Of a DNA stretch of 64,000 bases, positions 39,047-61,139 are shown piece by piece. This DNA is from an uncultured Alphaproteobacteria bacterium (lineage in GTDB: Bacteria > Pseudomonadota > Alphaproteobacteria > CAAHEQ01 > UBA3637). The notes beneath the pieces are model-generated. The model was not told the DNA's origin and did no database searches. It saw nothing but the letters and a program-made list of their open reading frames with translations. Position numbers and translations under genes: made by a program. Within the stretch, counting starts at the first letter, position 1, and each line of letters opens with the position of its first letter. Where the stretch lies: contig CALXVS010000004.1 of the NCBI GenBank assembly GCA_944392145.1, positions 5,833 to 69,832 of the forward strand. Reading direction: 5' to 3'.

Positions 39047-39047
39047 A

Positions 39048-41747: not shown

Positions 41748-41749
41748 AC

Positions 41750-42142
41750 ATGGAACAGAAAACAATCAGATGTGCAGTATACACTCGTAAATCAACAGAA
41801 GAAGGGTTAGACAAGGAGTTTAACACTTTAGAAGCTCAACGAGAGGCTGGTGAAAACTATATCAAAAGCCAAAAACAACAAGGTTGGATCTTGCTTCCAC
41901 AGCATTATGATGATGGTGGTTATAGCGGTGGCACATTAAAACGTCCTGCCCTTCAAAGTCTATTGTCAGATGTGCAAAATGGTAATGTTGATATGATTGT
42001 TGTTTATAAAATTGACCGCTTAACCCGTTCTTTGCTAGATTTTTCACAACTGATTAAAACGCTTGATGCACATAATTGTTCTTTTGTTTCTGTTACACAA
42101 AATTTTAACACTTGCGATTCCATGGGTAAGCCGCCATTGTGA
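41750..42142 (+). pseudogene. Large serine recombinase, N-terminal catalytic domain only (130 aa, truncated)
   Basis: 'CAVYTRKSTEE…GYSGGTLKRPALQSLL…DMIVVYKIDRLTRS' resolvase-domain signature. Ends after 130 aa where portal homology begins. Confidence 0.6.
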
Positions 42143-42792: not shown

Positions 42793-43134
42793 TAGCGAGG
42801 AAAATTAGTTTTTCTGGTTCCTTTCGCCGGATTACCGGTAAAATGCTGATAATAAAACATGCGACAGGCAAACTGCCAAACTCGCCGAATTAGGTTTAAC
42901 TTTAGGAGATTTAACCCGAAAGGAGGAAAAAACGATACAAAATGATGATGAAATACAGACTATAGAATAAAATTTTTATATATTTTGTAATTTTTATTGA
43001 ATTATTTGGGAATATCTGGGAAATTTTCTATTTTGCAAAATAGCAAAAATGCAAAAAAATAAAATAGGACTTGCTTTTATGTTTGTTTTTGGCTATATTG
43101 GAGTCATATTCCATTTTAGCCAAAAGGATGTCTT

Positions 43135-44358: not shown

Positions 44359-44492
44359 GTATCTATCAAACAAAACAAAGCCTCACTTCTCGTGGGGCTT
44401 TTTTGTTATCCAAAACACAAAAAGTAAAGGTTATCAATTTATCCTTTACTTTCTCAAAAAGAAAGTAAAGGTTTTCATTTAAGTGAAAGGAA

Positions 44493-45398
44493 ATGAGAAT
44501 GAAACTATTAAACAAGACCGTTTGGGCAATAACGCCAGAGATGTTGCAGACGATGATGACGATAGCGAGGCAGAACAACAAAAGCCCTGAAGCAGTCGCC
44601 AGTCAAATTGGTAAAGAGATGAAAAACACAAACGCCGTTTCTATCCGAGACGGCGTTGCTGTTATCAGGGTTGCCGGCCCATTGTTCAGGTATGCAAACC
44701 TGTTAACTCGCATTTGTGGTGCAACCTCTTACGAGCTTTTCGCTCAGGACTTTAATAAAGCCCTCAAAGACCCGACAGTTCAAGCCATTTTGCTTGATGT
44801 TGACAGTCCGGGTGGCGAAGTAAACGGCTGTTCGGAAGTTGCCGATATGATTTATAAGGCTCGTGGCACAAAGCCGATTGTCGCTTATGCATCCGGTTAC
44901 TGTTGCTCGGGTGCTTATTGGATCGCCTCAGCCTGTGACAAGATTTATGCAACCGATACGGCCGTCATTGGCTCAATCGGTGTCGTTTCCATTTTTGAAA
45001 AGGATGATGAAAACAAAACCATAGAGATTGTTTCATCGCAAAGTCCGAATAAACGACCCAATGTGGAAACCGAGGAAGGTAAAGCCAAAATTCAAGAACA
45101 CGTTGATGCGTTGGCTGATGTTTTTATCAATAAAGTTGCACTTAACAGGGATATCTCCCCGGAAGAAGTTATCGAAAACTTTGGTGGTGGAGATGTGTTT
45201 GTTGGGCAAAAAGCCGTCACTATCGGTCTGGCGGACGGCTTGTCCTCATTCGAGGAATTAGTGTCAGACCTTAACACAGGGACGTATTACCAGTTAATAG
45301 GCAAAAATGGCAAGAGTAAAAATTGTTTTAGAACAATGGATTTTTCACAAAGTGTAACCCTGGGAACATCAGGTGGGGCTCTGATTGGCTCGGATTAA
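44493..45398 (+). CDS. S49-family serine peptidase (phage prohead protease gpC / SppA-like)
   Basis: '…LLDVDSPGGEV…' and '…GYCCSGAYWIASACDKIYA…' S49 catalytic blocks. Confidence 0.65.
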   Translation: MRMKLLNKTVWAITPEMLQTMMTIARQNNKSPEAVASQIGKEMKNTNAVSIRDGVAVIRVAGPLFRYANLLTRICGATSYELFAQDFNKALKDPTVQAILLDVDSPGGEVNGCSEVADMIYKARGTKPIVAYASGYCCSGAYWIASACDKIYATDTAVIGSIGVVSIFEKDDENKTIEIVSSQSPNKRPNVETEEGKAKIQEHVDALADVFINKVALNRDISPEEVIENFGGGDVFVGQKAVTIGLADGLSSFEELVSDLNTGTYYQLIGKNGKSKNCFRTMDFSQSVTLGTSGGALIGSD

Positions 45399-45402
45399 AA
45401 CA

Positions 45403-45433
45403 GGACGGAAAAGAACAAGATCCGTCCTTTTGT
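45403..45433 (+). terminator. Hairpin AGGACGGA-(12 nt)-TCCGTCCT followed by TTTT
   Basis: Directly after the S49 peptidase stop. Confidence 0.4.
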
Positions 45434-45466
45434 GTATTTATATCGGCCGTTTATGGTATTCGTGCG

Positions 45467-45733
45467 TTGGCAAGATTACTGCAAAACTATCAACGGATCC
45501 ATGGCTTAGATACGCCAAGAAAGATAATCAGCCGATACGCTCCGCCGAGTGAAAACCAAACACAAGCCTACATCCAAAGTGTGGCCGCTCAGCTTGGTAT
45601 CACACCGGATGGTAAAGTTGATTTGACCGAAATCGGTACTTTAACTGTGTTTATCAAGGCCATAATTCGTCATGAAAACGGAATGCAACCTTATTCAAAC
45701 GAAACCATTCAGAAAGGAATTGCTTTGCTATGA
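45467..45733 (+). CDS. Phage-associated protein fragment (88 aa)
   Basis: 'RYAPPSENQTQAYIQSVAAQLGITPDGKVDL…' block. Precedes the lysis-like genes. Identity uncertain. Confidence 0.25.
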   Translation: MARLLQNYQRIHGLDTPRKIISRYAPPSENQTQAYIQSVAAQLGITPDGKVDLTEIGTLTVFIKAIIRHENGMQPYSNETIQKGIALL

Positions 45734-47069: not shown

Positions 47070-47510
47070 ATGGGCAAGATATGCTCGTTTTTTGGACACA
47101 GTCATTTATATGGACAATCAGAAAGTATTGTCCATCAATTAAGGCAAATCATTATCAATTTAATTGGAAAAGGCGTTGATACCTTTTACGTTGGCAATCA
47201 TGGTGAGTTTGATATTTTTGCCAGCCGGGTAGCCTATGATCTGAAAAGTTTATATCCTAACATCCAAATCATTGTTGTTTTATGTTATCCAAATGAGTTG
47301 CAATACTTAAAATGTGCCTTCACGGATTTTTTGATGCCTCCGGAAATAGAAGCGGTCCCCAAACGGGCTTGCATTGTAACTCGCAATCATTGGGTTGCTG
47401 ATAATTCTGACTACGTCGTCTGCTTTATCAAATACAAAATGGGTGGAGCCTATGCGGCTATCGAATACGCCCAAAAGCACCATAAACAAATTATAGAGGT
47501 AAGAGCATGA
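47070..47510 (+). CDS. YpsA/DUF1273-like (SLOG-family) Rossmann-fold protein
   Basis: 'FFGHSH…YVGNHGEFDIFASRVAYDLKSLYPNIQIIVVLCYPNE' resembles the DUF1273 pattern. Confidence 0.35.
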   Translation: MGKICSFFGHSHLYGQSESIVHQLRQIIINLIGKGVDTFYVGNHGEFDIFASRVAYDLKSLYPNIQIIVVLCYPNELQYLKCAFTDFLMPPEIEAVPKRACIVTRNHWVADNSDYVVCFIKYKMGGAYAAIEYAQKHHKQIIEVRA

Positions 47511-47609
47511 AGCAAGCAGGCATTCGTCACATTTTGGCCGAACGGTTGACTTCGCAAGGGAAGACAGATAAAATTGGCCCGGTAAAAACTCTTAAAGAAT
47601 GGTGTAAAA

Positions 47610-48203
47610 ATGCGTAAAAATCAAGTCAGTCGAAATCAAAGGATTCATATTCCCAAAAAAGTGGAAGATGCTTCGGTACAATTAATGTTACCGGTAGATG
47701 TTGCTTCTGTAAAGCAAGCATTTGCAACAGCTAATGACAAACGATTTAAATATGCTGATGCGCTGGATCAAGCAACCAAAGAAGATCCGGAATTGCATCA
47801 AATTTCAACAATTCCAAGCGATTCAAGCGAATTAATTGTTATAACGAAACTTAAAAAACTGGGGGCTTATATTCTAGCCGTGACGGTTAAATCGCCGGCC
47901 AAATTCAGACCTGTTTTTATCAATCGGATGCAAAATTACAGCTTGTCGGCTTTGGAAAATTTATTGAATGCTAATTTTATTCGGATGGATAGCCCCGAAC
48001 ATAAAGCCCAGCGAGAAAAGCATCAAACGGATGCACTCATTCAGTTAAAAATGGTGGCATATGTTGCAATGCTGTCGGAAAATGCAAAGTGTATTTTGAT
48101 GAGGCAGTATAAACAAATATCAATTCAGGTTGGTGAAATTATTAACCTGATTATGGCATGGAAAAAAAGTGATGATAAACAATGGCAAACAAAAAAGTTT
48201 TGA
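47610..48203 (+). CDS. avd: DGR accessory variability determinant (Avd)-like protein with N-terminal extension
   Basis: C-terminal '…DALIQLKMVAYVAMLSENAKCILMRQYKQISIQVGEIINLIMAWKK' aligns with the BPP-1 Avd helices ('DAGLAMLRFWLRFL…QVLIAEVGRILGSWIAR'). Ends 40 bp before TR. Confidence 0.55.
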   Translation: MRKNQVSRNQRIHIPKKVEDASVQLMLPVDVASVKQAFATANDKRFKYADALDQATKEDPELHQISTIPSDSSELIVITKLKKLGAYILAVTVKSPAKFRPVFINRMQNYSLSALENLLNANFIRMDSPEHKAQREKHQTDALIQLKMVAYVAMLSENAKCILMRQYKQISIQVGEIINLIMAWKKSDDKQWQTKKF

Positions 48204-48243
48204 ATCCGAAAGGATCAAAAAAGGGAAAGTTGATAATGCGTAT

Positions 48244-48362
48244 TGTGCCTCTTGGTCCGCGTCTTCAAATGAAAATGAAAACGTGCGTTGCGTCAACTAT
48301 AAGGACGATAAGAACTGGAATAACACGAATAAACGTAAAATCTCGGCGCGCCCCGATTTGCT
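48244..48362 (+). repeat. DGR template repeat (TR), 119 bp
   Basis: Matches 49868-49986 with ~21 mismatches, ~20 of them at TR adenines. 3' GC-rich 'TCTCGGCGCGCCCCG' IMH*-like end. The overlapping ORF 48169-48561 is regarded as spurious. Confidence 0.85.
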
Positions 48363-48610: not shown

Positions 48611-49690
48611 ATGACGATGAAGATTGAAGAGATATTTACATTTGAAAACCTGGTTGCGGCTCATAAAGCGTGTCGGCTGAGCAAGCAACATAAACGGGGA
48701 ACAATCATGTTTGAAATTGAGTTGGGGCGTAATGTCACCAATCTGGTCAAACAATTGACGAATAAAACATATCGTTTAAGTCCTTACAGATCCTTTACCA
48801 TTTATGATCCGAAGAAAAGATTAATTGAGGCTTTGCCTTACAAAGACAGAGTGGTTTTAATGTGCTTTTGTCAGCATTCGGTAGCTCCCCGGCTAGAGAG
48901 ACACCTTATTTATGATAATGCCGCCTCACGCAAAGAAAAAGGGACGCATTTTGCGGTGGATCGATTGCATTCATTTATGCGAAAGCTGTACATCAAAAAC
49001 AAAACAAATCGGATTTATTTTTTGAAATGCGATATCAGGAAATATTTTCAAAGCATCAATCATGAGATTTTACTGGAACAGTTGGCCAAAGTCGGTTTTT
49101 CGGCTGATGAGATGTGGTTTTTAAGGATGATTATTGAATCACACGGCTCTATCGGATTGCCCTTGGGTAATCAGACCAGCCAATGGTTTGCCTTGCTGTA
49201 TTTGAACGGAATGGACCGGCTGATTAAAGAACGCCTGCGTATGCTTTACTATGTGCGCTATATGGATGATTTTGTTATCCTAAGCGAAGATAAATCTAAA
49301 TTACAGTTATGCAAACAACAGATTGATGAATATGTTAAAGGGCTGAAGCTCTCCTTAAATCAAAAGACACAAATCGGGCTGTTATCGGATGGTATAGATT
49401 TTTTGGGATTTAACCACAAATTATCGGCCACCGAAAAGATTATTAAATCTCTGCGCGGATCGGCCAAAAGCCGCCAAAGAAAATACCTGAAAGCTATCCG
49501 TCACTACTATTTGAATGATGTTCTTGATGATGAGTACATAGACGTCCGTTTAGCCTCATATCGCGGGCATTTAAAGGGCACTAAGAACTGGCTACATATC
49601 TGCAACCGCTTGACCTCCTTGAAACACGAGAAACGTCGTACAAAAAAATTGTTGCAGAACAATAAATTGTATGATATACTGGGAGTATAA
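48611..49690 (+). CDS. DGR reverse transcriptase
   Basis: 'IFTFENLVAAHKA', 'YRLSPYRSFTIYDPKKRLIEALPYKDRVV', 'LGNQTSQWFALLYL' (DGR-type SQ motif), 'YVRYMDDFVIL' (YxDD), 'GIDFLGF'. Alignable with Bordetella phage bRT. Confidence 0.9.
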   Translation: MTMKIEEIFTFENLVAAHKACRLSKQHKRGTIMFEIELGRNVTNLVKQLTNKTYRLSPYRSFTIYDPKKRLIEALPYKDRVVLMCFCQHSVAPRLERHLIYDNAASRKEKGTHFAVDRLHSFMRKLYIKNKTNRIYFLKCDIRKYFQSINHEILLEQLAKVGFSADEMWFLRMIIESHGSIGLPLGNQTSQWFALLYLNGMDRLIKERLRMLYYVRYMDDFVILSEDKSKLQLCKQQIDEYVKGLKLSLNQKTQIGLLSDGIDFLGFNHKLSATEKIIKSLRGSAKSRQRKYLKAIRHYYLNDVLDDEYIDVRLASYRGHLKGTKNWLHICNRLTSLKHEKRRTKKLLQNNKLYDILGV

Positions 49691-49709
49691 GCTAAATTAG
49701 GAGGCTCGT

Positions 49710-51659
49710 ATGGGCTTTACGTTTTTGAAGGAAGATCAGATATGGGGCGATGATGCCCTGGATGTAATGAAACGTTATGGTACGAAGGTTGCGCCAACGG
49801 ATCTGACAGTCATATTGGGTGGTTATATGACCGGTGGTGGTGATCGTACTTCTGAAGATGATCTAACTTGTGCCTCTTGGTCCGCGTCTTCGAATGATTA
49901 TGGAGACGTGCGTTGCGTCTACTGTTTGGGCGTCCAGATCTGGAATGACGCGCATAAGCGTACGATCTCGGCGCGCCCCGCTTTGCCTCCATCGGAGGCA
50001 TCTAAAATCAGCCCGAGCGAAGCGAGGGCTATCGCTGGAATCCGCGTAGCGGAATATGGGGAATACCCGCAAACGGTCGCCGATGAGCGCACCAGTGCAA
50101 AATTAGAAAAATTACATGATTCAAGATCTCTCCGTCCGACCGGAAAAAATTACACATTTGATTCAGTTGATTTAGGCGATTATGGCACGTCTTTTAAGGC
50201 CACATCCTATCAGGAATATGAAATGGATGGCAAAAGGTATATCCGTGTTCCTGGACGGCCTGCTGACGGCGATAGCAAGCTATCTACAGGTGAACAGGTA
50301 GAAGAAGGAAAGCCATACTGGGTTGAGGTCCAACCGATAGAATGGCTGATGGATAGAAGCGGCACAATGGTCGCCAAAAAATGCTTATTCGCCGGTATTC
50401 AATTTGATACGAAAGATTCATATGATGGCGGCTTTTCCAAAACGTCCATAAAGCACTATTTGGACACTTATTTTGCCAAAGAAATGGAGCCGACCGGACG
50501 TGTGGCCGCAAGAACGGTATCAAGAGACTATGAAGAAGAGCCGGAAAGAAAAGAACCCGTTAAAAAGAAAGAACCGACAGCCAGACAGAAGAAATACGGG
50601 ATCGAGGTATCTGATGAGCCTATGCCCGTCAAAGACCAAATAAACTTCTATATTCAAAACGGAATGAGCTTCATGCTCCATGGCCCGTCCGGTGTCGGTA
50701 AATCACAACGTGTGAAAGAAATTGATCCGGATTTGACCTCAATTACACTGTGTAACGGAATTTTGCCTGAAGATGTTATCGGTAAAACAATCTATCCAAA
50801 CGGCGTGGGAGCCGATGGGGCCTCCGGTGGTGTTTGGGTGCCGCCTAAGTGGTACACGGATTTGTGCAGAAAATGCGAAACAGAACCGGACAAACAGCAC
50901 GTCTTATTTATCGATGAAGTGACCAATGCGCGTGAAACAACACAAAGTTTGATCTATCACGTAGCGTTGGAAAAATCAATTGCCCAGGGCGTTGGCAAAC
51001 TGCCTAATAATGCTGTGGTCGTGTTGGCCGGTAACAGCAAGGAAGAATCAGGAGCCGCTTATAACATGCCGGCCCCGTTGTTCAGACGTTTAAGCCATAT
51101 TTACTTGGACTTGAATATTCAGGATTGGTTGGAATGGGGCTCGGAACACAGCAAGAGCCATCCGGAAGATCCGGATCGCTTAAACATCCATCCGTTAGTC
51201 GCCAGTTTTGTGGCAACCTACGGACGGCAAGTGTTCTATTCCGAGTATGATGAAGAAAACCCCGGTAAGTTTGCTCTTGACCCACGAAAATGGGAAAAGG
51301 TATCAGATAAAATCTATGCCAATAAGGGTGTGATGCGCCGTGAGATTTTGGAAGCTGATATCGGGCCTGAATTGGCGGCCAGTTTATTGTCATATGCTAA
51401 AAATCCGCCGCTATCTTTGGAAGAAGTGATTGAGGGCGAATATACCCGCGAGGATATTCCTACGGGACAGGATGCCCGTTTGGCGTTGGCGTTGAGTTTG
51501 CGTCATGCAACACCGAAACAAGTCGGAAAAGTACGTCAATTTGTTGAAACACAGTTAGGCGCAGAAAATCGTGCGATTTTTGACTCTGTTTGGGTGGGCA
51601 AGGATGATACACGCGCCATGCAGATCGCCACTCTACATAACTTAAAGGGAGGAAGATAA
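49710..51659 (+). CDS. DGR target protein: N-terminal variable region fused to a MoxR-like AAA+ ATPase (649 aa)
   Basis: Strong RBS AGGAGG. VR encodes aa ~53-92 ('CASWSASSNDYGDVRCVYCLGVQIWNDAHKRTISARP'). Walker A 'GPSGVGKS' and Walker B 'VLFIDEV' further downstream. Confidence 0.75.
   Translation: MGFTFLKEDQIWGDDALDVMKRYGTKVAPTDLTVILGGYMTGGGDRTSEDDLTCASWSASSNDYGDVRCVYCLGVQIWNDAHKRTISARPALPPSEASKISPSEARAIAGIRVAEYGEYPQTVADERTSAKLEKLHDSRSLRPTGKNYTFDSVDLGDYGTSFKATSYQEYEMDGKRYIRVPGRPADGDSKLSTGEQVEEGKPYWVEVQPIEWLMDRSGTMVAKKCLFAGIQFDTKDSYDGGFSKTSIKHYLDTYFAKEMEPTGRVAARTVSRDYEEEPERKEPVKKKEPTARQKKYGIEVSDEPMPVKDQINFYIQNGMSFMLHGPSGVGKSQRVKEIDPDLTSITLCNGILPEDVIGKTIYPNGVGADGASGGVWVPPKWYTDLCRKCETEPDKQHVLFIDEVTNARETTQSLIYHVALEKSIAQGVGKLPNNAVVVLAGNSKEESGAAYNMPAPLFRRLSHIYLDLNIQDWLEWGSEHSKSHPEDPDRLNIHPLVASFVATYGRQVFYSEYDEENPGKFALDPRKWEKVSDKIYANKGVMRREILEADIGPELAASLLSYAKNPPLSLEEVIEGEYTREDIPTGQDARLALALSLRHATPKQVGKVRQFVETQLGAENRAIFDSVWVGKDDTRAMQIATLHNLKGGR
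49868..49986 (+). repeat. DGR variable repeat (VR) with IMH at the 3' end
   Basis: 119-bp partner of TR. In frame in the target gene. GC-rich 'TCTCGGCGCGCCCCGC' terminus differs from TR by one base. Confidence 0.85.
49985..49999 (+). promoter_or_regulatory. GC-rich hairpin (GCCTCC-atc-GGAGGC) immediately 3' of the VR
   Basis: Equivalent position and shape to the hairpin/cruciform element that enhances DGR retrohoming in Bordetella phage. Confidence 0.5.
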
Positions 51660-51660
51660 A

Positions 51661-52131
51661 ATGTCATTAAAAGAAATGCTTGAAAAAAATCGGAAGAAAC
51701 GCAAGAATGGCTTAGTCATCCAACCTGATATAGGATGGGCCGGACCGAAACCCGCCCGAACAAAAGCCGAAAAGATTAATCAAATCAAAACGGAATTTAT
51801 TGATGATAGAGCTTTGTTGATTGTCGGAGCCAAAGCATCCGACTTTGCAGAATATCCGAAGATAGAGGCTGATATCTCAGTCCAAGACTTAATCAAGCAT
51901 ATTGAACAATTAGAATCTGTAAAACAGAGACTGAAAAAGAAGATGTTGCTTGTTATAACCGGACTGGATAAGATTTCGGCTGACGAACAGGCAAAATTCA
52001 TTCCTCTCTTGAAGGATAGGCAAATTATGGCAAGTAAATTGCCTGATGCAGTTCAAATTGTTATGCCTGTTGCTGATGCTGATGCAGTTTCTCATGCAAC
52101 AAAGTCACTCATTTTTGAATTGAAAGTATAA
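51661..52131 (+). CDS. Hypothetical protein (156 aa) between the AAA+ and VWA genes
   Basis: ATG 2 bp after the upstream stop. No motif recognised. Confidence 0.3.
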   Translation: MSLKEMLEKNRKKRKNGLVIQPDIGWAGPKPARTKAEKINQIKTEFIDDRALLIVGAKASDFAEYPKIEADISVQDLIKHIEQLESVKQRLKKKMLLVITGLDKISADEQAKFIPLLKDRQIMASKLPDAVQIVMPVADADAVSHATKSLIFELKV

Positions 52132-52133
52132 TA

Positions 52134-53972
52134 ATGCCTAATATGGTCACAGAGCAACAGGAAGAAATTCAATATATCAAAGAACAGGTTTTGGCCAAGT
52201 TCCCTTTGCTCGGCGTGACGATGAGACCCTTATCGGTTGTTCCTGATGATAGAATTGGAACAGCGGCCACAGACGGGCATCGCATTATCTATTCTCCAAA
52301 GTTTTTTAGCACTTTATCGGATGAACAGAAACAATTTGTCTTTGCGCATGAAGTGATGCATGTCGCTTTTAACCACATTTTGCGCAGTAAGGGCCGTAAT
52401 CAAAGGTTGTGGAATATCGCAACCGATTCTGTTATCAACCAAATTCTGAAAAATGAAAAATTGCCATTAACGGAAGGTGGTGTTGATATTGCAGAAGCTG
52501 TCAACCATTCGGCCGAAGAAATGTATGAAAAACTCTTGAAAAAGAAAGAACAGCGTGATCAGGAAAAGGGGCAAAATCAAGAGCAACAGCAACAATCACA
52601 ATCCGGTGGGACGGACCAGCCTCAGGATCAGGATGCACAAAATCAGCCTGAACAGGAACAACCTCAGGATCAAGACGGACAAAATCAATCCGGACAAGAC
52701 CAGCCTCAGGATCAAGACGGGCAAAAGGGACAAGAACAATCCGATCAACAATCAGACGGTTCGGAAAATCAAGATGAACAAAACAAAAATTCATCAGAAG
52801 GCTCGGAAGGATCCGAACAACAGAAAGATCAATCTCAAGATGGTGATTCAAACTCTGATCAAAACAGTTCTTCCGGTCAGGGAGACGAAAATCAATCTGA
52901 TTCAAATTCCGAACAATCAAGCGACAATCAACAAGGATCCTCTAAACCCCAAAAGGGTGGTCAACGTTCGCAATCCGGTTCTTCCTCTCAATCAGAAGAC
53001 ACCGACTGGGATGACAGCAATATCGATTGGGACAATGAAGATGAACAAGTAGGCCACGATACACACGATATTTGGAAAGAAGCGGTTGAAGAGGCAGAAC
53101 GTGAAGAACAACGGAAACAGGAACAAGCGAATAAGAAGAGTTTGTGGGATAGGCTGAAAGAAGCCATGGGGCAAAAAGAAGTTAAAGAGGATCAGCAAGG
53201 CGAACCTCAAGAAAAAGAAGCTCCTATACCGCAAGATGAAAACATGGATGCGTATGAAAAAGGCTTCTTGGCAGAAAATCAAGAAAAACGTCATGAGATG
53301 GCCGAACAGGTGCGCGAGCAATTAAACAGGATAAAAGGAAGCCTCCGTCAATCAAATGATCATACCACCCTCGGGGATGTTGGGGAAACTCAAACGCCGG
53401 TGGTTGATTGGAAAAAAATGCTTAAAAAATCTTTTGATGAAGAGCGTGATCGTTGGTCCTATCGTCGTTCCGGTTCTGAAAACGACTATATGGCTCGGGT
53501 GGAAGAATTGGAAGATGAAGGCCGTCCGGATACGGAAGTCATGTTGGATGTGAGCGGTTCTGTAAATATCCGCTTGTTACGTGAATTTTTAAGACAACTT
53601 AAACCGCTCCTCAAATCCTCTAAATTAAAGGTCGGTTGCTTTGATGAGTTTGTTTATGACTTTAAGGAAATAAAGACTAAAGAGGATATTGACCATTTCC
53701 AAATTACGGCAAAATCTCAATGGACTGAAAACTGGGATGCGGCTGTCCGGGCATTTTCTAAGAAAAAAGAAGTGAATAAAATTATTTTTACAGACGGATA
53801 TCCATGCCCAGGAACAATGCCTAAAGAAGATTTAAAGGGTAAGAATGTTATTTGGATAGTTTACGGAAATAAAGATTTTAATCCATGCTGTGGTAAAGTC
53901 ATCCAGGTTTCTGAACGACAACTTCAGTCGTATATTCAGACGGCCGCTCCACTTTCTAGAGGTGGAAGATAA
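52134..53972 (+). CDS. Putative metallopeptidase (HExxH) - acidic low-complexity linker - VWA (MIDAS) domain protein; MoxR partner
   Basis: 'HEVMHVAFNH' zinc-binding motif. Long Q/D/E/S-rich linker. C-terminal 'DVSGSV…' MIDAS-type VWA. Confidence 0.6.
   Translation: MPNMVTEQQEEIQYIKEQVLAKFPLLGVTMRPLSVVPDDRIGTAATDGHRIIYSPKFFSTLSDEQKQFVFAHEVMHVAFNHILRSKGRNQRLWNIATDSVINQILKNEKLPLTEGGVDIAEAVNHSAEEMYEKLLKKKEQRDQEKGQNQEQQQQSQSGGTDQPQDQDAQNQPEQEQPQDQDGQNQSGQDQPQDQDGQKGQEQSDQQSDGSENQDEQNKNSSEGSEGSEQQKDQSQDGDSNSDQNSSSGQGDENQSDSNSEQSSDNQQGSSKPQKGGQRSQSGSSSQSEDTDWDDSNIDWDNEDEQVGHDTHDIWKEAVEEAEREEQRKQEQANKKSLWDRLKEAMGQKEVKEDQQGEPQEKEAPIPQDENMDAYEKGFLAENQEKRHEMAEQVREQLNRIKGSLRQSNDHTTLGDVGETQTPVVDWKKMLKKSFDEERDRWSYRRSGSENDYMARVEELEDEGRPDTEVMLDVSGSVNIRLLREFLRQLKPLLKSSKLKVGCFDEFVYDFKEIKTKEDIDHFQITAKSQWTENWDAAVRAFSKKKEVNKIIFTDGYPCPGTMPKEDLKGKNVIWIVYGNKDFNPCCGKVIQVSERQLQSYIQTAAPLSRGGR
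52605..52745 (+). repeat. Imperfect tandem repeats (CAGCCTCAGGATCARGAYGG.CAAAA…) encoding (Q-P-Q-D-Q-D-G-Q-N-Q)n
   Basis: Three visible copies within the linker of 52134-53972. Confidence 0.45.
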
Positions 53973-54014: not shown

Positions 54015-56046
54015 TTAATATAAATTAGCCTCAAAAATTTGATAAAGGTCAAATTCTATACCGTCAACGCCTCTGATGAGGTCTATTTCGTCTTCGGCGG
54101 CGACATCAATTCGGGCCTGATCCAAAAACAAGCCTTCTTCTTTTTTGCGGAGTTGTTTTTCCATTTCGTTGATTTGCTTTTGAATTTTAAGTTCTTCTAA
54201 GCGGTCTTTGGCACTACCGATACTTTCTTTAATTTTTGATGTTTCTTGGCGTAAGGATTCAAGAGTTTGTTCTAATACGGCTTTTTGACGAGATGAACGC
54301 ATTTTGATAATATCAATATCCGTATTAAAAGCACCTTCTTGTTGTTTGATATAGTTGTTTTTCAACTCATCTTCTAAGAATACTGGCAACCTGTCAGAAA
54401 ACGAACTGTTTGCTAGCCAATAAGAGCGTTCTCTATCCTTATTTTCAACAGATTTAATTGGCTGTGATAAAATTTTGACACATTCTTCTTGGGTTAAAAT
54501 CTTGTCATCTTCTGTTTTGCCGGTTAAAACATCATAATTTTTAAGAAACTTTCCCTTTCGGCGTAATTCAACATTATACATACTGATTTGGCAAGATTCA
54601 ATGCTTGTTTCAAGCTGTATTTCGCCCTCTGTAGCACACTCAATTTCACTAAAAATTCCCTTAGCTAAAATAGAAGTTAAGGTAATTCTTCCGCTTGCCG
54701 GTTTAAAATCTTTGGTCATGCCATACTGACGTTTTCCCGTATAAGGTGTGTTTCTTGTCCCGGTCCAATAATAGAACATATGTGGCAATTCACAATCATC
54801 CGGTAAAGTTAATGTTTGATTGATATCATCAATAATATATTGAGGATGATGCTTTTCAAAATAAAACTTCACAACCTCCCATAAGTCCCGATTGAGAAAT
54901 TCTGCCTGTTCTTGAATATATTGAGGTGAGACCTGTATTTTTTCGGCCACATCCTTTGTAAATGTCGTAAATAAAACACTTTCGGCATCCGAAACAACTT
55001 GTGCGTTGGCATCTTTATTTATCTCTAAATTCTGTGCAAAATCCCGTTGAATATCGGGCAAGGTTCGGCGTTTTTGCAAAACTGCTTCCAATGTTTCATC
55101 AAAGTTGCCCACCATATCATCCGACATCCCGAAAATACCCTGAAATTGTAAAGTTCGTTTGTTAATCAATTCCAAAATACGCACATCAGACATATTTTCC
55201 TGACTGAGCAAATTGATAACCAACACATCGGATTGTTGCCCTTGACGGTGGCAACGACAAATTCGTTGTTCCATCTCAACGGCATTATAAAGTAAATCAT
55301 AGTTCGCGACAACCGGACAGTATTCTATGTCTAAACCTTTGGCAGTTGCATCGTTTGTGATGAGAATTTGAATATTTTTATCTTCTCTAAAAATCCTCAA
55401 AGCATTATCATCTGTGTGTTTTATAACTGAATAATGTCCCTTCAATAACTTTGATAAAACGGATATCCTGCTCCTGATTGATGATATTTTCAGCCTTTTT
55501 AAAAGCGTCAATGTTGATAATCATAATTTCAATGTTGCTGGAAGTCGCAAAAGCCCGAACATCTGACAGTTTTGCCGAATTATAGATAAAATATCTGTAA
55601 GGCACGCTGTCATATTGATTTTTAAAGTGTTCTTCGGTGATTTGGAAGGATTTATTCACACCTTCACGAATAGCAATACTTGGCACAACAATGATAAACT
55701 TTGTAAAGCCGTAACGTTTATTGAGTTCCAAAATTGTTTTTGTGTAAACATAGGTTTTACCGGTTCCGGTTTCCATTTCAATAGAAATAGGCAAGGCTTT
55801 GCCGGATTCAATATCTGTTTGAGGCAAAGATTGACCTTTTTGAATATTTTTCAAATTAGAAACAAGCGTTTCCTTATCAAGCAGAAGTTTGTTACCAAAA
55901 CCAAAATCATTTTGCAATAAACTAAATTGAGCCGAATTATCAACGATAGAAAAAGTTGTTCCGGCTTTTTCTTGTCCTTTGAATAAATCAGCAACAGCAT
56001 TAACTGCCTTTTCTTGAAATTCCTGTTTCTTAAATTTTAGTTTCAT
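54015..56046 (-). pseudogene. Type III restriction enzyme Res subunit (SF2 helicase-nuclease), frameshifted/internally deleted
   Basis: N-part ORF 55408-56046 carries Walker A 'METGTGKTYVY'. C-part ORF 54015-55511 begins with helicase motif 'ILITNDATAKGLDI' and 'QRICRCHRQG'. The two ORFs overlap out of frame at 55408-55511. Combined length is short for Res. Confidence 0.55.
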
Positions 56047-57004: not shown

Positions 57005-57703
57005 CTACAACAACTCAATCTCAATGCCTTTGTCTTTACTGATATAATAGGCGTTGGAAAGGGCGACATCGTCCTTAAAGGCTTCTTCGGCGGCGACGAT
57101 TTTGGCTGGTGTCAAATCGCACATAGCCGTAATATCTTCCGGTGTAATACCTCCGTTAGAACCATCCAAGCATACGAGAACAAGTCCGTCTTCGCCAATG
57201 GAATAGACTTTACGGCCGTTAATGTCAATCGGGGCTACCTTGTATGTAACGGGAATACCCAATTTTAACATCACTTCATACACCACGTCCAATTCCGAAC
57301 GGTCAAATTTCAAGCTTTTAATCATAGTATCAAAGCGTTCTTTCAAGGCATTTGCATCGTCAGTCGGTGTATCATCCCATTTGACGAGGTTGGAGGTATC
57401 CAACTTCAATGTTTTGAAACCGGTATCAACTTCGGGATGTTCGGCTTTAATCTTAGCTCCGGCACGGAGGATACGTTCTTTGCCGATTTCGCAAATGTTT
57501 TTGTATCCGGCTTTAAAGGCTTCTGATTTCTCGTCTGTTACTTCCGGCAGTTGTACCATAATGAATTGACGTTTTCCGCCATCTTCAGCATTTAATTGCA
57601 TAACGGCATGAGCCGTAGTTGCAGAGCCAGAGAAAAAGTCGAGGATGATATCGTCATCTTTATCTGTTGCTATTTGTAGCATTTCTTTTATATATGGTAT
57701 TGG
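57005..57703 (-). pseudogene. Type III Mod (N6-adenine methyltransferase) C-terminal fragment
   Basis: '…[36 protein letters not shown]…' (motif I region of beta-class MTases). The ORF-track N-terminus (57707-57898) is antisense read-through of the groEL fragment. Confidence 0.6.
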
Positions 57704-57704
57704 T

Positions 57705-58247
57705 TTAGCTAAGTTATCCGGCGGCGTAGCCGTTATTAAAGTCGGTGGAGCAACTGAAGTTGAAGTCAAAGAAAAGAAAGATCGTATTGATGATGCTTTA
57801 CATGCAACACGTGCTGCTGTTAAAGAAGGTGTTGTTGTTGGTGGTGGTGTTGCTTTATTGTATGCAACACGTGCATTAGAAGACTTAAAACCAGCCAATG
57901 ATGACCAACGTGTTGGTGTTGATATTATTCGTCGAGCAATTCAGGCTCCATTGCGTCAAATCGTTTCAAACGCGGGTGAGGATGGCGCTGTTGTCGTTGG
58001 AAAACTGTTGGAAAAATATGATACCAATATGGGTTATGATGCTCAAAAGGATGAGTATACAAATATGTTTGACGCAGGTATTGTTGACCCGACTAAAGTG
58101 GTTAGAACAGCTTTAGAAGGCGCATCTTCTGTCGCTAGCTTGCTAATTACAACAGAAGCTATGGTGGGTGATAAGCCGGAAGATGAATGTTCTTGTGGTA
58201 AAAATGCTGCCGCAGGTGGCATGCCAGGTATGGGTGGTATGTACTAA
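57705..58247 (+). pseudogene. groEL: groEL 3' fragment (C-terminal ~180 codons of chaperonin GroEL)
   Basis: '[52 protein letters not shown]…' to the GGM-rich tail. Homology starts abruptly at ~57705 with no N-terminal part. Confidence 0.7.
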
Positions 58248-58619: not shown

Positions 58620-61139
58620 ATGATAGAGATGCTGGGAGTACTGGTTATTGTAGGTGTATTGAGCGTAGCGGCATTATTTGGATTTACCTATGCGATGAAC
58701 AAGTATAAAGCGAACGAGACGATTCATGATGTGATGTTACGTGCTTCGAATGTCCCGATGATAGATGAGTATTATCAGATACGACCGACAAATTATGCAT
58801 TTAAATTTCCGGATTTACAGGATGAGTTGTCTTCTATGGGGTATACGATGAAGACATTAAAGACGGATGAATTTGGGTATGTGTATAAGGTGGAAGCCCC
58901 TTCGGTGCCGAGACGGATATGCAGTTTAATTTTACAGATGGAACCGACGGACATAGATGAGATCCGGATAGGGACGGAGAAGATATTATATACGGCGGGA
59001 CATTCAGAGCTATGTGAAGAGTACAAGGATAGTTCAACGGAAAGCACGATGATGACCTTTTACTTTGAACGGGGTTGTGAGACGAATGCGGACTGTAGTA
59101 AGTGTCAAGAATGTTATCAAGGTCGTTGTAAAGCGAACTATGATTTACCGGGATGTGGAGAACCTGTAGAATGTAATGGAGATGATGATTGTCCGGATGG
59201 TTTATGTTGTCGTGATGGTTCTTGTACGACGAATTGTGGTATAGAAACATGTGATCCACCTTGTGATGAGTGTCACACATGTGATGAGAGTTTGCGTCAA
59301 TGTATTAAGAATACTTGTTCTATAGAGAGTTGTCCTGAGGGGCAAGAAGCGAGTGGCTATGATAAGTGTGGATGTATAGAAGGCTGTATAGAGAAGTGTC
59401 CAGATTTGAAGTGTAATGAGGAATGCACAGTCCCGAATTACGACACCTGTAGTTGTGAGGCGGATTCGGATCCCTGTTGTGGGTTCGAAGGAGCTGCGTT
59501 GACTTGCTGTCTAGGAGGATTGAGTTGCACGGAGCCGTGTCAAGAGGCGAATTACGAGAGTTGTACCTGTGAACCGAAGGTTTGTACATTAGAATGTAAA
59601 GAAGGGGAAGAAGCGACGGGGTATGATAGTTGTGGCTGTCCGACGGGTTGTTCTCGTCCGTGTACAGATGATTGGGAGTGTAATGGGTTTTGTTCAGTTT
59701 GTGAGGGAGGATATTGTGTAGATAAGACGGAGCAACAAGATATATCGGAATGTTGTGATGGTAGTTCATACACGAGTTGTTGTCCGTTAAATGGGAATAA
59801 TTGTGGTTGTACGCCCAATACATGTGCTTTAGTTGTTTCAGAGATACCGGTTGGTCAAGAGGCCTGTTATGAGAATGTTCCTGAAGGAGGAGAGATATGT
59901 GGTGAAGTCTGTTCTGGAGGGTATAAGAAGAAAGCGTGTCCGAGTGGGGATCATTGTCCTGAAGGAGAACGAGAGATAGGGCGAGATGAATGTGGATGCC
60001 CCTATTGTGAACCATGTCCTGATGGTGAATTTTCTTGTGGGACGGAATGTTGTAATGCTGCTAGCGAAACTTGTTGTGGAGGGAGTATTTGTTGTCCGGT
60101 AGGGCATGCCTGTTGTGAAGGGGTATGTTGTGGAGAGGGGCAAACTTGTGGAAATAATGGTGTTTGTTGTTCTCCTTGTGAATTGACATGTTTAGGACAA
60201 GGCTTAGAATTAGACGCTTGTGGGTGTCCGACTATTTGCGGTTGTGATGATGAAAAACAATGTCGTGCAAATGAAATCACTGAAGATGACAATATTGACT
60301 GTTGTGAATTTGTAGGCGGTGTTTACCATGATAACCATTGTTGTTCAACAGATCTTCCTTATTGGTCTGACGAAGAAAAAAAATGTGTAAAATGTTTAAT
60401 TGATCAGCATTGTCAAGAACGGAAGGATGGAAAAATAAGGTGTAATCAAGAAACAAAAATATGTGAATGTCCGGAAGATAAACCTTATTTTTCAGGAGAA
60501 AAATGTGTCGAATGCTTAAATAATGCAAATTGTTCAGATAGAACGGACGGAAAAACGCAATGTGATACAGAAACTTATACTTGTATTTCTGGTTGTATTT
60601 CTTTAGGAGAAACATGTGAAAAAGACAATGGAGAAGGTGGCCTTTGTGTTAAGGAGAGCAATTCTTCTTCTACACTTGTTTGTTGTTCAGTTGATAAAAT
60701 GGTTGTGAAACTTAATGGCATCGGATGTCCAGCTTCTCCACCAAATCAATATAAAGAATGTTGCGAGGATGGTAAAGTTTATCGTCCTAAATCAGTTGGA
60801 ACTGGTTGCTGTCGTTCTCCTAATGTTTGGATGTCGTCTGTTTCTTCTCTTTCTTTTTCCTCTAAACACTGTGATATTCCTCTTCCAGATGAGTATTTGA
60901 TGAGATCATGTTGTTGCCCTGGTCTAAATTATATTTGTTCTGAAACAGGAGATTGTGTAAAGATAGATGAAGTGGATGATATCGGAGAATGTACAGAAAT
61001 ATGTACAAGGACTGATAAGTTGTATAAAGTTTGTTGTAAAGGTGGAACGCCGACACAAACAGCAGGTGGATGGTATAGCTGTCCAGGATGTGAATGTACG
61101 GAAGCTTTATTGCCGGAAACTTGCTCCTTTGGTGGTTAA
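58620..61139 (+). CDS. Giant cysteine-rich protein (839 aa from first ATG) with type IV pilin-like N-terminal helix
   Basis: '(GRS)MIEMLGVLVIVGVLSVAALFGFTYAMNKYKANETI' homologous to the N-terminus of the 28193 protein. ~120 Cys (~15 %) in CxxC, CC and CxC arrays. AGA/AGG/ATA-rich codon usage unlike the core genes. In-frame upstream extension to 58530 lacks a canonical start. Confidence 0.6.
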   Translation: MIEMLGVLVIVGVLSVAALFGFTYAMNKYKANETIHDVMLRASNVPMIDEYYQIRPTNYAFKFPDLQDELSSMGYTMKTLKTDEFGYVYKVEAPSVPRRICSLILQMEPTDIDEIRIGTEKILYTAGHSELCEEYKDSSTESTMMTFYFERGCETNADCSKCQECYQGRCKANYDLPGCGEPVECNGDDDCPDGLCCRDGSCTTNCGIETCDPPCDECHTCDESLRQCIKNTCSIESCPEGQEASGYDKCGCIEGCIEKCPDLKCNEECTVPNYDTCSCEADSDPCCGFEGAALTCCLGGLSCTEPCQEANYESCTCEPKVCTLECKEGEEATGYDSCGCPTGCSRPCTDDWECNGFCSVCEGGYCVDKTEQQDISECCDGSSYTSCCPLNGNNCGCTPNTCALVVSEIPVGQEACYENVPEGGEICGEVCSGGYKKKACPSGDHCPEGEREIGRDECGCPYCEPCPDGEFSCGTECCNAASETCCGGSICCPVGHACCEGVCCGEGQTCGNNGVCCSPCELTCLGQGLELDACGCPTICGCDDEKQCRANEITEDDNIDCCEFVGGVYHDNHCCSTDLPYWSDEEKKCVKCLIDQHCQERKDGKIRCNQETKICECPEDKPYFSGEKCVECLNNANCSDRTDGKTQCDTETYTCISGCISLGETCEKDNGEGGLCVKESNSSSTLVCCSVDKMVVKLNGIGCPASPPNQYKECCEDGKVYRPKSVGTGCCRSPNVWMSSVSSLSFSSKHCDIPLPDEYLMRSCCCPGLNYICSETGDCVKIDEVDDIGECTEICTRTDKLYKVCCKGGTPTQTAGGWYSCPGCECTEALLPETCSFGG

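What the first reader, a model, noticed from the sequence alone, without database searches (positions are those of the whole stretch)
49710..53972. DGR hypervariation aimed at the N-terminal region of a MoxR-like AAA+ ATPase that is paired with a metallopeptidase-VWA protein - unusual target architecture
In described DGRs the VR usually forms the C-terminal ~40 residues of a C-type-lectin or Ig-like ligand-binding domain. Here the VR encodes residues ~53-92 of a 649-aa protein ('CASWSASS…RCV…ISARP', reminiscent of CLec VR ends). Only ~50 residues lie upstream, so a conventional CLec fold cannot be complete. A MoxR/CbbQ-type ATPase (GPSGVGKS / VLFIDEV) follows. The next genes encode a 156-aa unknown and an HExxH-metallopeptidase plus MIDAS-VWA protein, the classic MoxR partner. 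This suggests a diversified recognition module feeding an ATPase-VWA remodelling or sensing machine rather than a phage receptor-binding protein.
Basis: partly seen in the sequence, partly recalled or inferred. Interest (0 to 1): 0.85.

Follow-up and report, generated by a model that had tools for sequence, protein, structure and literature searches.

The report
Hypermutated binding head on MoxR ATPase
A gut alphaproteobacterium uses a retroelement (DGR) to rewrite about 20 codons in a binding module at the front end of an intracellular MoxR-type ATPase that is paired with a protease-VWA protein; this combines two published themes in a way I did not find described.

Summary
A complete DGR (Avd 47610-48203, TR 48243-48361, RT 48611-49690) lies 19 nt upstream of a 649-aa target. 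Its VR (49868-49986, aa 53-93) differs from the TR at 21 positions, 20 of them TR adenines. It was active recently: a MAG 99.3% identical over 5.8 kb carries 25 of its 33 differences inside the VR.

The fusion is not an artefact. More than 70 full-length homologues exist, and 14 of 14 RT-bearing related loci place the VR at aa 53-93.

Residues 300-649 fold as a CbbQ/NorQ-class MoxR AAA+ ATPase. The partner protein is DUF2201_N (HEVMH) plus DUF2201 VWA (DVSGS).

Residues 1-262 are predicted as one rigid unit (pTM 0.93). They appear to be a circularly permuted relative of DUF6273, the lectin-like DGR target domain of phage "tentaclins".

The cis elements lie inside the ORF. A hairpin with compensatory changes sits 24 nt past the VR, and codons 91-107 show the gene's highest synonymous conservation.

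A close relative carries ankyrin repeats in place of this head.

My best reading is a hypervariable ligand selector for a MoxR-VWA-zincin machine, probably acting in biological conflict. That function is inferred, not shown.

Novelty: a new variant of known kinds.

The parts
47070..47510 (+). SLOG/YpsA-like 146-aa gene directly upstream of avd; possible accessory restricted to this clade
   Evidence: Pfam YpsA E 1.8e-5, below the cut-off. Found upstream of avd only in the window's close clade, L003-L005 and L007.
47610..48203 (+). Avd accessory protein of the DGR (197 aa)
   Evidence: PHROG 3206 'Avd protein of DGR' 6.7e-11; Pfam bAvd 1e-5; NCBIfam DivGenRetAVD 4.6e-5. The best promoter-like site of the region lies at 47546-47574.
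48243..48361 (+). Template repeat (TR), 37 adenines
   Evidence: 119-nt direct repeat of the VR; 20 of 21 mismatches are at TR adenines. It is the only other copy in the window.
48611..49690 (+). DGR reverse transcriptase (359 aa; YMDD aa 217-220; LGNQTSQ aa 185-191)
   Evidence: Pfam RVT_1 5e-21; PHROG 1423 4.8e-96; 35% identity to the FP_Toutatis DGR RT, E 8e-47; motifs located.
49710..51659 (+). DGR target: 649-aa protein made of N1N2 binding head, disordered linker and MoxR-class AAA+ ATPase
   Evidence: 594 homologues, more than 70 of them full length. AF2 mean pLDDT 85.5.
49710..49985 (+). N1 sub-domain (aa 1-92), which carries the VR; equivalent to the C-terminal half of DUF6273
   Evidence: pLDDT about 96. 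An N1 profile finds 886 cluster representatives, with N1 almost always at residues 1-100. hhalign aligns aa 47-93 to FP_Toutatis gp24 136-178, P 0.002.
49868..49986 (+). Variable repeat (VR), aa 53-93; about 20 mutable codons (62-66, 71-77, 79-83, 85-86, 91)
   Evidence: Theoretical diversity is about 10^19 sequences.
49968..49988 (+). GC-rich IMH-like 3' end of the VR (TCGGCGCGCCCCGCTTTGCCT), coding for SARPAL
   Evidence: TR/VR homology ends at 49986. These nucleotides are invariant or nearly so across diverged loci. R89 and P90 are invariant in the proteins.
50010..50030 (+). Conserved hairpin inside the ORF (AGCCC-GA-GC-GAA-GC-GA-GGGCT), 24 nt after the VR; candidate DGR target-recognition hairpin
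   Evidence: 84.9% of cells are paired and 6 of 7 pairs change on both sides; 0 of 500 shuffles reach the score, and slid controls pair at 27-36%. Codons 91-107 have the gene's highest synonymous identity, 0.74-0.79 against 0.46 gene-wide.
50016..50495 (+). N2 sub-domain (aa 103-262); its C-terminal strand and helix (aa ~200-260) are equivalent to the N-terminal part of DUF6273
   Evidence: pLDDT about 97 and pTM 0.93 when modelled together with N1. hhalign aligns aa 214-257 to gp24 31-76, P 0.004. In tandem protein P0136, Pfam DUF6273 spans N2 C-terminus plus the next N1.
50607..51659 (+). MoxR/CbbQ/NorQ-class AAA+ ATPase module (aa 300-649; Walker A 50682-50705, Walker B 50901-50918)
   Evidence: Foldseek PDB hits 6l1q CbbQ2 and 9qh4 NorQ, E 1e-9. 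PHROG 1297 ATPase 4.8e-37. Pfam AAA_3 and AAA_5 match only below the cut-off.
51661..52131 (+). Conserved 156-aa protein of unknown function, starting 2 nt after the target's stop codon
   Evidence: No family hit. Present between the ATPase and VWA genes in most loci.
52134..53972 (+). Zincin-like metallopeptidase (HEVMH 52347-52361), acidic low-complexity spacer and VWA domain with MIDAS DVSGS (53547-53561)
   Evidence: Pfam DUF2201_N 3.2e-26 and DUF2201 7e-7. PHROG 1314 1.6e-49. Motifs located.

Best explanation
A recently active DGR (avd-TR-RT) sits immediately upstream of, and probably in one transcript with, three genes. The first encodes a cytoplasmic protein whose N-terminal ~260 residues (N1N2) form a lectin-like, DUF6273-related ligand-binding head. 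The head joins a MoxR/CbbQ/NorQ-class AAA+ ATPase through a disordered linker.

Mutagenic retrohoming rewrites about 20 codons, giving roughly 10^19 possible sequences. These codons lie in loops and in a beta-hairpin of the head.

[quoted passage not shown] They are a GC-rich IMH and a hairpin 24 nt downstream, and they occupy the linker between N1 and N2.

Inferred mechanism: the hypervariable head selects a variable protein or other ligand. The ATPase ring works with the MIDAS-VWA domain of the co-encoded zincin-VWA protein, as NorQ-NorD, CbbQ-CbbO and RavA-ViaA do. The bound ligand is then remodelled, or handed to or used to trigger the metallopeptidase. The most likely setting is biological conflict, such as sensing or neutralising invader proteins.

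Shown here: DGR activity, domain architecture, ATPase fold class, operon conservation, swappable head, embedded cis elements.

Inferred: ligand binding, coupling to the peptidase, and the biological role.
For: DGR activity.

A real, conserved fusion.

MoxR fold: (CbbQ2 and NorQ/NorQD complexes, E 1e-9).

Zincin-VWA partner with intact HExxH and MIDAS. It is conserved downstream in nearly all alphaproteobacterial loci.

The head is one rigid, confidently predicted unit: pLDDT 96.4, pTM 0.93.

Relation of the head to DUF6273:
- Recurrent weak CLec-fold hits include TvpA.
- In tandem protein P0136, Pfam DUF6273 spans the N2-C-terminus/N1 junction.
- hhalign maps the two halves in swapped order.
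- The TR peptide resembles the FP_Toutatis DUF6273 TR.

The head is a modular binding unit: N1N2 occurs with coiled-coil, MORN, DUF4116, ankyrin and AAA partners. Relative P0073 keeps the same ATPase (84% identity over the aligned C-terminal 58% of the query) but has ankyrin repeats in place of N1N2.

Embedded cis elements: set against Guo 2011 (hairpins 4-34 bp downstream of the VR; PMC3240598).

Cellular rather than viral.

Neighbours include type III R-M genes (window; L085) and a Gabija-like pair, so named from Pfam AAA_15/AAA_21 plus UvrD-helicase only (L002).

Precedent for DGR-diversified lectin sensors in MoxR-vWA systems.
Against: - No experimental or direct computational evidence shows ligand binding, ATPase-VWA contact or peptidase activity.
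- PADLOC finds no known defence family for the ATPase, the 156-aa protein or the VWA protein.
- Pfam AAA_3 and AAA_5 hits are below gathering thresholds.
- The window protein itself does not hit Pfam DUF6273, even when artificially permuted.
- About 11 loci that carry N1 lack an RT within 6 kb, so the module can exist without a local DGR.
- Neighbourhoods are mostly housekeeping genes, so the defence-island signal is weak.
- MoxR-VWA pairs also serve metal-cofactor insertion and assembly.
Confidence: 0.6

Rival explanations
1. The trio is a phage or prophage accessory module. It would serve virion or tail assembly (as MoxR-VWA does in archaeal viruses), host takeover or superinfection exclusion, with the DGR adapting it to host variation in the way it adapts phage receptor-binding proteins.
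For: The ATPase and VWA proteins match PHROG families 1297 and 1314. The window has prophage remnants just upstream: portal fragment, S49 head protease, lysozyme-like fragment, DUF2924 and a resolvase. The cassette order Avd-TR-RT-target and the VR class match gut-phage DGRs such as FP_Toutatis. Phage_lysozyme genes occur near L084 and L086.
Against: There is no signal peptide, Ig or tail domains; the C-terminus is an ATPase. IMG/VR scans found only 2 distant ATPase-only relatives and no N1N2, and there was no megablast match in 50,697 phage records. Related loci sit among housekeeping genes without phage structural modules. The phage genes in the window are truncated fragments.
Confidence: 0.2
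2. It is an ordinary MoxR-VWA chaperone for cofactor insertion or complex assembly (NorQD, CbbQO, CobST or RavA-ViaA type). Its N-terminal domain happens to be a DGR target, and the variation has little functional meaning.
For: The best structural matches are NorQ and CbbQ, which are metal-centre or Rubisco chaperones. Many family members lack N1 or a local DGR. Chromosomal neighbourhoods are largely housekeeping.
Against: The DGR-target arrangement is conserved across RTs that are only 60-64% identical. Nucleotide-level selection maintains the cis elements. Scaffold residues in the VR are conserved (G74, R84). The head can be replaced by ankyrin repeats, a protein-binding module. No client enzyme gene is conserved next to the operon.
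Confidence: 0.1
3. Artefact or relic: the 649-aa ORF is a frameshift or assembly fusion of a small C-terminal-VR protein with an ATPase, or the DGR is dead.
For: Some related MAG loci show stops or frameshifts inside the VR: L007, L012, L020, L023, L044 and L051. Four TR codons can mutate to stop codons.
Against: More than 70 independent full-length homologues at 46-97% identity share the same architecture. AF2 models aa 1-262 as one unit continuous with the ORF. RT (YMDD), Avd and TR are intact. The near-identical MAG L003 differs almost only at TR-A positions of the VR.
Confidence: 0.02

Closest known systems
Tentaclins and Hoc-like DGR targets of gut phages (Baykov et al. 2023, PMC10743442; FP_Toutatis, bioRxiv 10.1101/2024.10.15.618418)
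   Same: The cassette order is the same: Avd-TR-RT, then the target about 20 nt downstream. [quoted passage not shown] The variable residues fall in a beta-hairpin and its flanking loops. The VR and TR peptides are of the same kind (W..S....V..V...........[VA]RP[AD]L).
   Different: Here the domain after the head is a MoxR AAA+ ATPase, not Ig/Fn3 domains with a virion-anchoring C-terminus. The protein is cytoplasmic and chromosomal in Alphaproteobacteria rather than a phage particle protein. The head is a permuted two-part unit (N1, an insert, then the N2 C-terminus) that does not itself reach the Pfam DUF6273 threshold.
DGR-linked MoxR-vWA 'VMAP ternary' conflict systems (Kaur et al. 2020, PMC7159879; Doré et al. 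2024, PMC10907252)
   Same: A DGR-diversified lectin-fold domain is genetically and physically coupled to a MoxR ATPase and a vWA protein, often together with a peptidase. A sensor or effector role in conflict has been proposed.
   Different: In those systems the lectin (FGS/FGE-type) domain is always C-terminal and is fused to the vWA component or to a separate target. A VMAP protein is the third component, and the hosts are mainly multicellular cyanobacteria, actinobacteria and Chromatiales. Here the VR module is N-terminal and is fused to the ATPase itself. The vWA protein is of the DUF2201 zincin-VWA type, no VMAP is evident, and the hosts are gut Alphaproteobacteria.
NorQ-NorD, CbbQ-CbbO and RavA-ViaA MoxR-VWA chaperone pairs
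   Same: The ATPase fold class and an adjacent MIDAS-VWA partner gene are shared.
   Different: Those ATPases have no hypervariable N-terminal head and no DGR. Their VWA partners lack a zincin domain, and they have defined metabolic clients.
CPR DGR targets with Midasin-like AAA or P-loop domains (UVR4 and category g1 of Wu et al. 2018, PMC5758913)
   Same: A DGR target protein contains an AAA-type NTPase domain.
   Different: The lineage (CPR) and the VR class (unclassified UVR4) differ. In category g1 the P-loop domain lies upstream of the VR, that is, the VR is C-terminal. No DUF2201 partner is described.

Membership tests
Diversity-generating retroelement (DGR) | TR/VR repeat pair whose mismatches fall almost only at TR adenines | tested here: met
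   20 of 21 mismatches are at TR-A. The same holds in 14 of 14 related RT-bearing loci.
Diversity-generating retroelement (DGR) | DGR-type reverse transcriptase next to the TR, plus an Avd accessory protein | tested here: met
   RVT_1 5e-21; PHROG RT 4.8e-96; YMDD and LGNQTSQ motifs present; Avd PHROG 6.7e-11.
Diversity-generating retroelement (DGR) | GC-rich IMH at the 3' end of the VR and a hairpin/cruciform 4-34 bp downstream (Guo 2011) | tested here: met
   The GC-rich end lies at 49968-49988. The hairpin at 50010-50030 shows compensatory changes and a peak of synonymous constraint. Its loop is a GNA triloop rather than the 4-nt GRNA loop, and its function was not tested.
Diversity-generating retroelement (DGR) | Evidence of ongoing diversification | tested here: met
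   In L003, which is 99.3% identical, 25 of 33 differences lie in the VR. Variable columns coincide with A-containing TR codons.
MoxR-class AAA+ ATPase | AAA+ core with Walker A and B motifs and structural similarity to MoxR members | tested here: met
   Walker A aa 325-332 and Walker B aa 398-403. Foldseek hits CbbQ2 and NorQ at E 1e-9, TM(target) about 0.6.
MoxR-class AAA+ ATPase | Pfam AAA_3 or AAA_5 match above the gathering score | tested here: not met
   AAA_3 scores 17.4 bits (cut-off 27) and AAA_5 scores 16.6 bits (cut-off 22). This is a divergent member.
MoxR-class AAA+ ATPase | Adjacent VWA/MIDAS partner gene | tested here: met
   DUF2201 VWA 7e-7 with DVSGS, conserved across loci.
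VMAP ternary MoxR-vWA conflict system (Kaur 2020) | Third component carrying a VMAP-C domain | not testable with these tools
   No VMAP profile was available. The only third gene is a 156-aa protein with no family hit.
VMAP ternary MoxR-vWA conflict system (Kaur 2020) | Diversified FGS/CLec domain at the C-terminus of the vWA component | tested here: not met
   The VR is at aa 53-93 of the ATPase. The vWA protein has no VR.
Tentaclins | N-terminal lectin-like (DUF6273) domain that carries the VR | tested here: inconclusive
Tentaclins | [quoted passage not shown] | tested here: not met
   The C-terminal 350 aa are an AAA+ ATPase. No Ig or Fn3 hit was found.
C-type lectin fold DGR variable proteins | VR on a CLec-fold scaffold | tested here: inconclusive

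The most novel reading that the evidence does not exclude
This would be a protein-level anticipatory immune or targeting device in ordinary, non-multicellular gut bacteria. The DGR-rewritten head acts as a programmable substrate selector on an AAA+ ring and delivers whatever it binds, for example phage or plasmid proteins, to a VWA-tethered zincin protease. The head module is interchangeable (N1N2 or ankyrin). The DGR also works as an on/off switch, because about 20% of fully rewritten VRs would truncate the whole ATPase.
Probability: 0.25. Interest if true: 0.85.

Novelty: new variant of a known kind. Interest (0 to 1): 0.6.

Why it matters
It would extend DGR-guided MoxR-vWA systems beyond multicellular bacteria into abundant gut Alphaproteobacteria. 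It would also do so with a different wiring, in which the hypervariable sensor sits on the ATPase's N-terminal domain. That is the position where AAA+ machines normally recognise substrates or adaptors.

The locus also gives a clear natural example of how a DGR can target the 5' end of a long gene. The IMH and the recognition hairpin are encoded inside a structurally permissive inter-domain linker. The signatures are measurable: compensatory base pairs and the strongest synonymous constraint in the gene. This speaks to the published argument that VRs are C-terminal because the cis elements need non-coding space.

The compact, self-contained cassette is about 6.4 kb from avd to the VWA gene. 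It could serve as a template for engineering in vivo diversification of N-terminal binding domains.

Tried and rejected
- Frameshift or fusion artefact. Rejected: more than 70 full-length homologues exist.
- A second VR or a second N1N2 copy in the window. None found.
- Direct family assignment of aa 1-262. Pfam at E<=10 gave nothing. phmmer and a profile search against PDB sequences gave only spurious hits to designed propeller repeats. Foldseek against BFVD gave nothing. The afdb50 library was not available.
- The hairpin GCCTCC-ATC-GGAGGC at 49985-49999, right after the VR. It is present only in the window's close clade and is not conserved (56% paired), so I did not take it as the general element.
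- PADLOC scan of the ATPase, the 156-aa protein and the VWA protein. No hits.
- NCBIfam scan. No informative names.
- Rfam scan of 45.5-54.5 kb. One sub-threshold chance hit only.
- Promoter and terminator scan. Not above shuffled expectation.
- Megablast of the region against phage records. No match.
- Whether standalone N1N2 proteins (P0122, P0126, P0135) sit next to DGRs. The contigs were short or showed no RT, so this was uninformative.
- The 156-aa protein. Only weak and conflicting similarities were found: AIM2 pyrin domain at E 0.06, and the ATPase's own Walker-B half at hhalign E 0.06. Left unassigned.

Full report
**1. Observation**

The + strand between 47.0 and 54.0 kb carries a tight gene row:
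- a SLOG/YpsA-like gene (47070-47510);
- avd (47610-48203);
- a non-coding TR (48243-48361);
- a reverse transcriptase (48611-49690);
- after a 19-nt gap containing GGAGG, a 649-aa ORF (49710-51659);
- a 156-aa ORF (51661-52131);
- a 612-aa ORF (52134-53972).

TR and VR (49868-49986) form a 119-nt repeat with 21 mismatches, 20 of them at TR adenines.

The component genes are confirmed by profile searches. The RT scores RVT_1 5e-21 and PHROG 4.8e-96, and has YMDD and LGNQTSQ motifs. Avd scores PHROG 6.7e-11.

**2. The DGR is active and the fusion is real**

A protein search returned 594 relatives. More than 70 are full length at 46-97% identity. In the alignment, hypervariability is confined to residues ~55-86.

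Among the eleven closest sequences, the variable columns are exactly the TR codons with A at position 1 or 2 (62-66, 71-73, 75-77, 79-83, 85-86). A-free codons are invariant. G74 is fixed even though its TR codon is mutable, which indicates scaffold selection.

A different MAG (L003) is 99.3% identical over 5.8 kb. Of its 33 differences in the shared 47.0-51.65 kb stretch, 25 fall in the VR and 23 fall at TR-A positions.

A scan of one genome per species recovered 79 loci, mostly gut Alphaproteobacteria MAGs with some Clostridia. Fourteen of them carry Avd and RT upstream. All fourteen have an A-biased TR/VR pair with the VR at residues 53-93, although their RTs are only 60-64% identical to the window's.

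**3. Domain anatomy of the target**

AlphaFold2 on a 72-sequence alignment gives mean pLDDT 85.5. Residues 1-260 score about 95, residues 263-286 form a disordered linker, and an AAA+ module runs from ~300 to 649.

Foldseek against the PDB puts CbbQ2 (6l1q) and NorQ/NorQ-NorD (9qh4 and others) on top at E 1e-9. These are MoxR-class ATPases that work with VWA partners. Pfam AAA_3 and AAA_5 match only below threshold, while PHROG 1297 'ATPase' matches at 4.8e-37. Walker A and B motifs are intact.

The 612-aa protein is DUF2201_N (3.2e-26, HEVMH) plus DUF2201 VWA (7e-7, MIDAS DVSGS). The two domains are separated by an acidic low-complexity spacer of about 170 aa. The 156-aa protein has no assignable family.

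**4. What the N-terminal head is**

Modelled alone, residues 1-262 give pLDDT 96.4 and pTM 0.93. That is one rigid unit made of N1 (1-92, containing the VR), a short linker and N2 (103-260).

A profile of N1 searched against 1.84 billion cluster representatives finds 886 proteins at E<=1e-3 and 365 at E<=1e-10. N1 is almost always at residues 1-100 and is almost always followed by N2.

N1N2 occurs in several contexts:
- alone;
- with coiled-coil tails;
- in tandem;
- with MORN, DUF4116 or ankyrin repeats;
- with the ATPase.

No direct Pfam hit exists for the window's head. Four indirect lines tie it to DUF6273, the lectin-like DGR target domain of phage tentaclins and FP_Toutatis:
- In the tandem protein P0136, Pfam DUF6273 (E 7.8e-6, above the gathering score) covers profile positions 5-170 across the junction 'C-terminus of N2 plus the next N1'.
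- hhalign maps N1 residues 47-93 onto FP_Toutatis gp24 136-178 (P 0.002) and N2 residues 214-257 onto gp24 31-76 (P 0.004). The two halves are in swapped order.
- The TR-encoded peptide resembles the FP_Toutatis TR peptide, and the cassette order Avd-TR-RT-target is identical. The RTs share 35% identity.

My reading is that N1N2 is a circularly permuted, insert-bearing relative of DUF6273. This would explain how a VR only ~50 residues from the N-terminus can sit on a complete scaffold: the remainder is supplied by residues ~200-260.

By the model's secondary structure, the variable positions fall in the 62-66 loop, in and around the beta-hairpin 67-70/76-79, and in the following loop. That pattern matches the one described for tentaclins.

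**5. Cis elements inside the ORF**

Published work argues that VRs are C-terminal because the IMH and hairpin need non-coding space (Roux 2021). It also notes that N-terminal VRs must encode the IMH within the protein-coding sequence (Wu 2018).

Here the GC-rich 3' end of the VR (49968-49988) encodes the invariant SARPAL. Twenty-four nucleotides further on, a hairpin at 50010-50030 (AGCCC-GA-GC-GAA-GC-GA-GGGCT) is conserved across diverged loci with compensatory changes:
- GCCC/GGGC changes to GTCC/GGAC, GGTC/GACC and ACCC/GGGT;
- the inner GC..GC changes to AC..GT.

Overall 84.9% of cells are paired and 6 of 7 pairs change on both sides. None of 500 shuffles reaches the score, and slid controls pair at 27-36%.

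Independently, I measured synonymous-codon identity among 86 diverged gene pairs. It is 0.46 gene-wide and reaches its maximum for the whole gene, 0.74-0.79, at codons 91-107.

Position and stem character fit the DGR target hairpins of Guo 2011, which lie 4-34 bp downstream of the VR. The loop, however, is a GNA triloop rather than a 4-nt GRNA loop. The element lies in the N1-N2 linker. The TR side lacks it.

**6. Function**

Nothing here tests function directly. The following observations bear on it:
- The head sits where AAA+ proteins normally carry their substrate- or adaptor-binding N-domain.
- P0073 keeps the ATPase at 84% identity over the aligned C-terminal 58% of the query, but has ankyrin repeats instead of N1N2. 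The N-terminus is therefore an exchangeable protein-binding module.
- The ATPase-small protein-zincin/VWA trio is conserved with or without the head and with or without a DGR.
- The family is essentially absent from IMG/VR and from phage records. It lies in bacterial chromosomes, sometimes beside R-M or Gabija-like genes. The 'Gabija-like' label is my reading of Pfam AAA_15/AAA_21 plus UvrD-helicase only. More often the neighbours are housekeeping genes.
- DGR-diversified lectin domains are already proposed as sensors in MoxR-vWA conflict systems.

I therefore favour a hypervariable ligand selector for a MoxR-VWA-zincin machine acting in biological conflict (confidence about 0.6 overall; the architecture itself about 0.9). 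The rivals are a prophage-derived accessory function (0.2), an ordinary cofactor or assembly chaperone (0.1) and an artefact or relic (0.02).

One corollary follows from the N-terminal position. Four TR codons (two AAG and two AAA) can mutate to stop codons, so about 20% of fully rewritten VRs would truncate the entire ATPase. In-frame stops occur at such positions in L012 and L044, although assembly artefacts cannot be excluded.

**7. Comparison and novelty**

N-terminal VRs (Wu 2018; tentaclins 2023) and DGR-MoxR-vWA coupling (Kaur 2020; Doré 2024) are both published. Full-text searches gave the following:
- DGR plus MoxR: 8 papers;
- DGR plus DUF2201: none;
- DGR plus 'AAA ATPase': 4 papers.

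None describes a VR-bearing head fused to the MoxR ATPase with a DUF2201 zincin-VWA partner.

The VMAP systems differ in several respects. Their lectin domain is always C-terminal and sits on the vWA component, a VMAP protein is the third component, and their hosts are multicellular bacteria.

I rate this a new variant of known kinds. It is real and well supported as an architecture, it carries an informative embedded cis element, and its function is untested.

Noticed in passing
window 57005-58247: A C-terminal GroEL fragment (ORF 57645-58247, +) abuts and overlaps a truncated type III R-M methyltransferase ORF on the - strand (57005-57898). The N-terminus of that ORF is merely the reverse-frame read of groEL. 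This looks like a rearrangement or pseudogene junction, or an assembly chimera. The neighbouring res/helicase genes (54015-56046) are also split into fragments.
   Followed up: no
window 58620-61139: An 839-aa, extremely cysteine-rich protein with a type IV pilin-like hydrophobic N-terminus (MIEMLGVLVIVGVLSVAALFG...). GC skew is strongly positive here.
   Followed up: no
window 41427-45733: A run of prophage remnants just upstream of the DGR: DUF2924, a 130-aa truncated serine-recombinase N-domain, a 217-aa C-terminal fragment of a lambda-type portal, a DUF4143/AAA_14 ATPase, an S49 head-maturation protease, and an 88-aa fragment matching an internal domain of phage endolysin or tape-measure proteins.
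   Followed up: partly
window 34000-44000: A low-GC block (0.32-0.37, against 0.41-0.48 upstream) carries a chromate-transporter fragment, PAPS-reductase-family and EF-Tu-type GTPase genes that I read as CysD/CysN-like, and an arylsulfotransferase. An ankyrin-repeat protein lies at 32527-33789.
   Followed up: no
window 51661-52131 (and alignment A6 of 19 orthologues): The conserved small protein has a motif hhhhxGLDxIxxxEQxKFxxLLKDRRxGxxKLPxxVQIVxPV. It resembles weakly both the AIM2 pyrin (Death-fold) domain (E 0.06-0.1) and the Walker-B-to-sensor half of the neighbouring ATPase (hhalign E 0.06). Neither match is significant.
   Followed up: partly
L012:4465-4586 and 6162-6283; L044:6001-6360: In L012 the TR itself carries TAA at the position of the conserved Trp78 codon. 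Its VR has two in-frame stops (TGA there, and TAA at the codon-85 position). L044, which has no RT nearby, has a stop at the codon-85 position. These could be DGR-generated null alleles, decaying copies or consensus artefacts.
   Followed up: partly
P0073 (metagenomic protein, 548 aa): It has the same MoxR ATPase (84% identity over the aligned C-terminal 58% of the query) but four to five ankyrin repeats in place of the N1N2 head. P0135 is N1N2 followed by ankyrin repeats and lies next to another ankyrin protein.
   Followed up: partly
window 49985-49999 and 50041-50053: There are two further small hairpins in the ORF. GCCTCC-ATC-GGAGGC lies directly after the VR and is found only in the window's close clade. 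TCCGC-GTA-GCGGA has in-register counterparts in other loci (for example TTGCCC-GAA-GGGCAA in L010 and TTTCC-AAC-GGAAA in L014). That second hairpin is decayed in L001, which lacks a nearby RT.
   Followed up: partly
window 52530-53050 (aa ~135-305 of the 612-aa protein): A long acidic Q/D/E/S-rich low-complexity spacer lies between the zincin and VWA domains. Its length varies strongly among orthologues (total protein length 476-612 aa), and it creates spurious overlapping ORFs on both strands.
   Followed up: no
L006:5941-6001 versus window 49650-49710: In L006, homology to the window begins 40 nt before the RT stop codon and the whole avd-TR-RT cassette is missing, while the target trio is retained. 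L008 keeps only a ~117-nt RT remnant. This suggests the DGR cassette has been lost repeatedly from this locus.
   Followed up: partly
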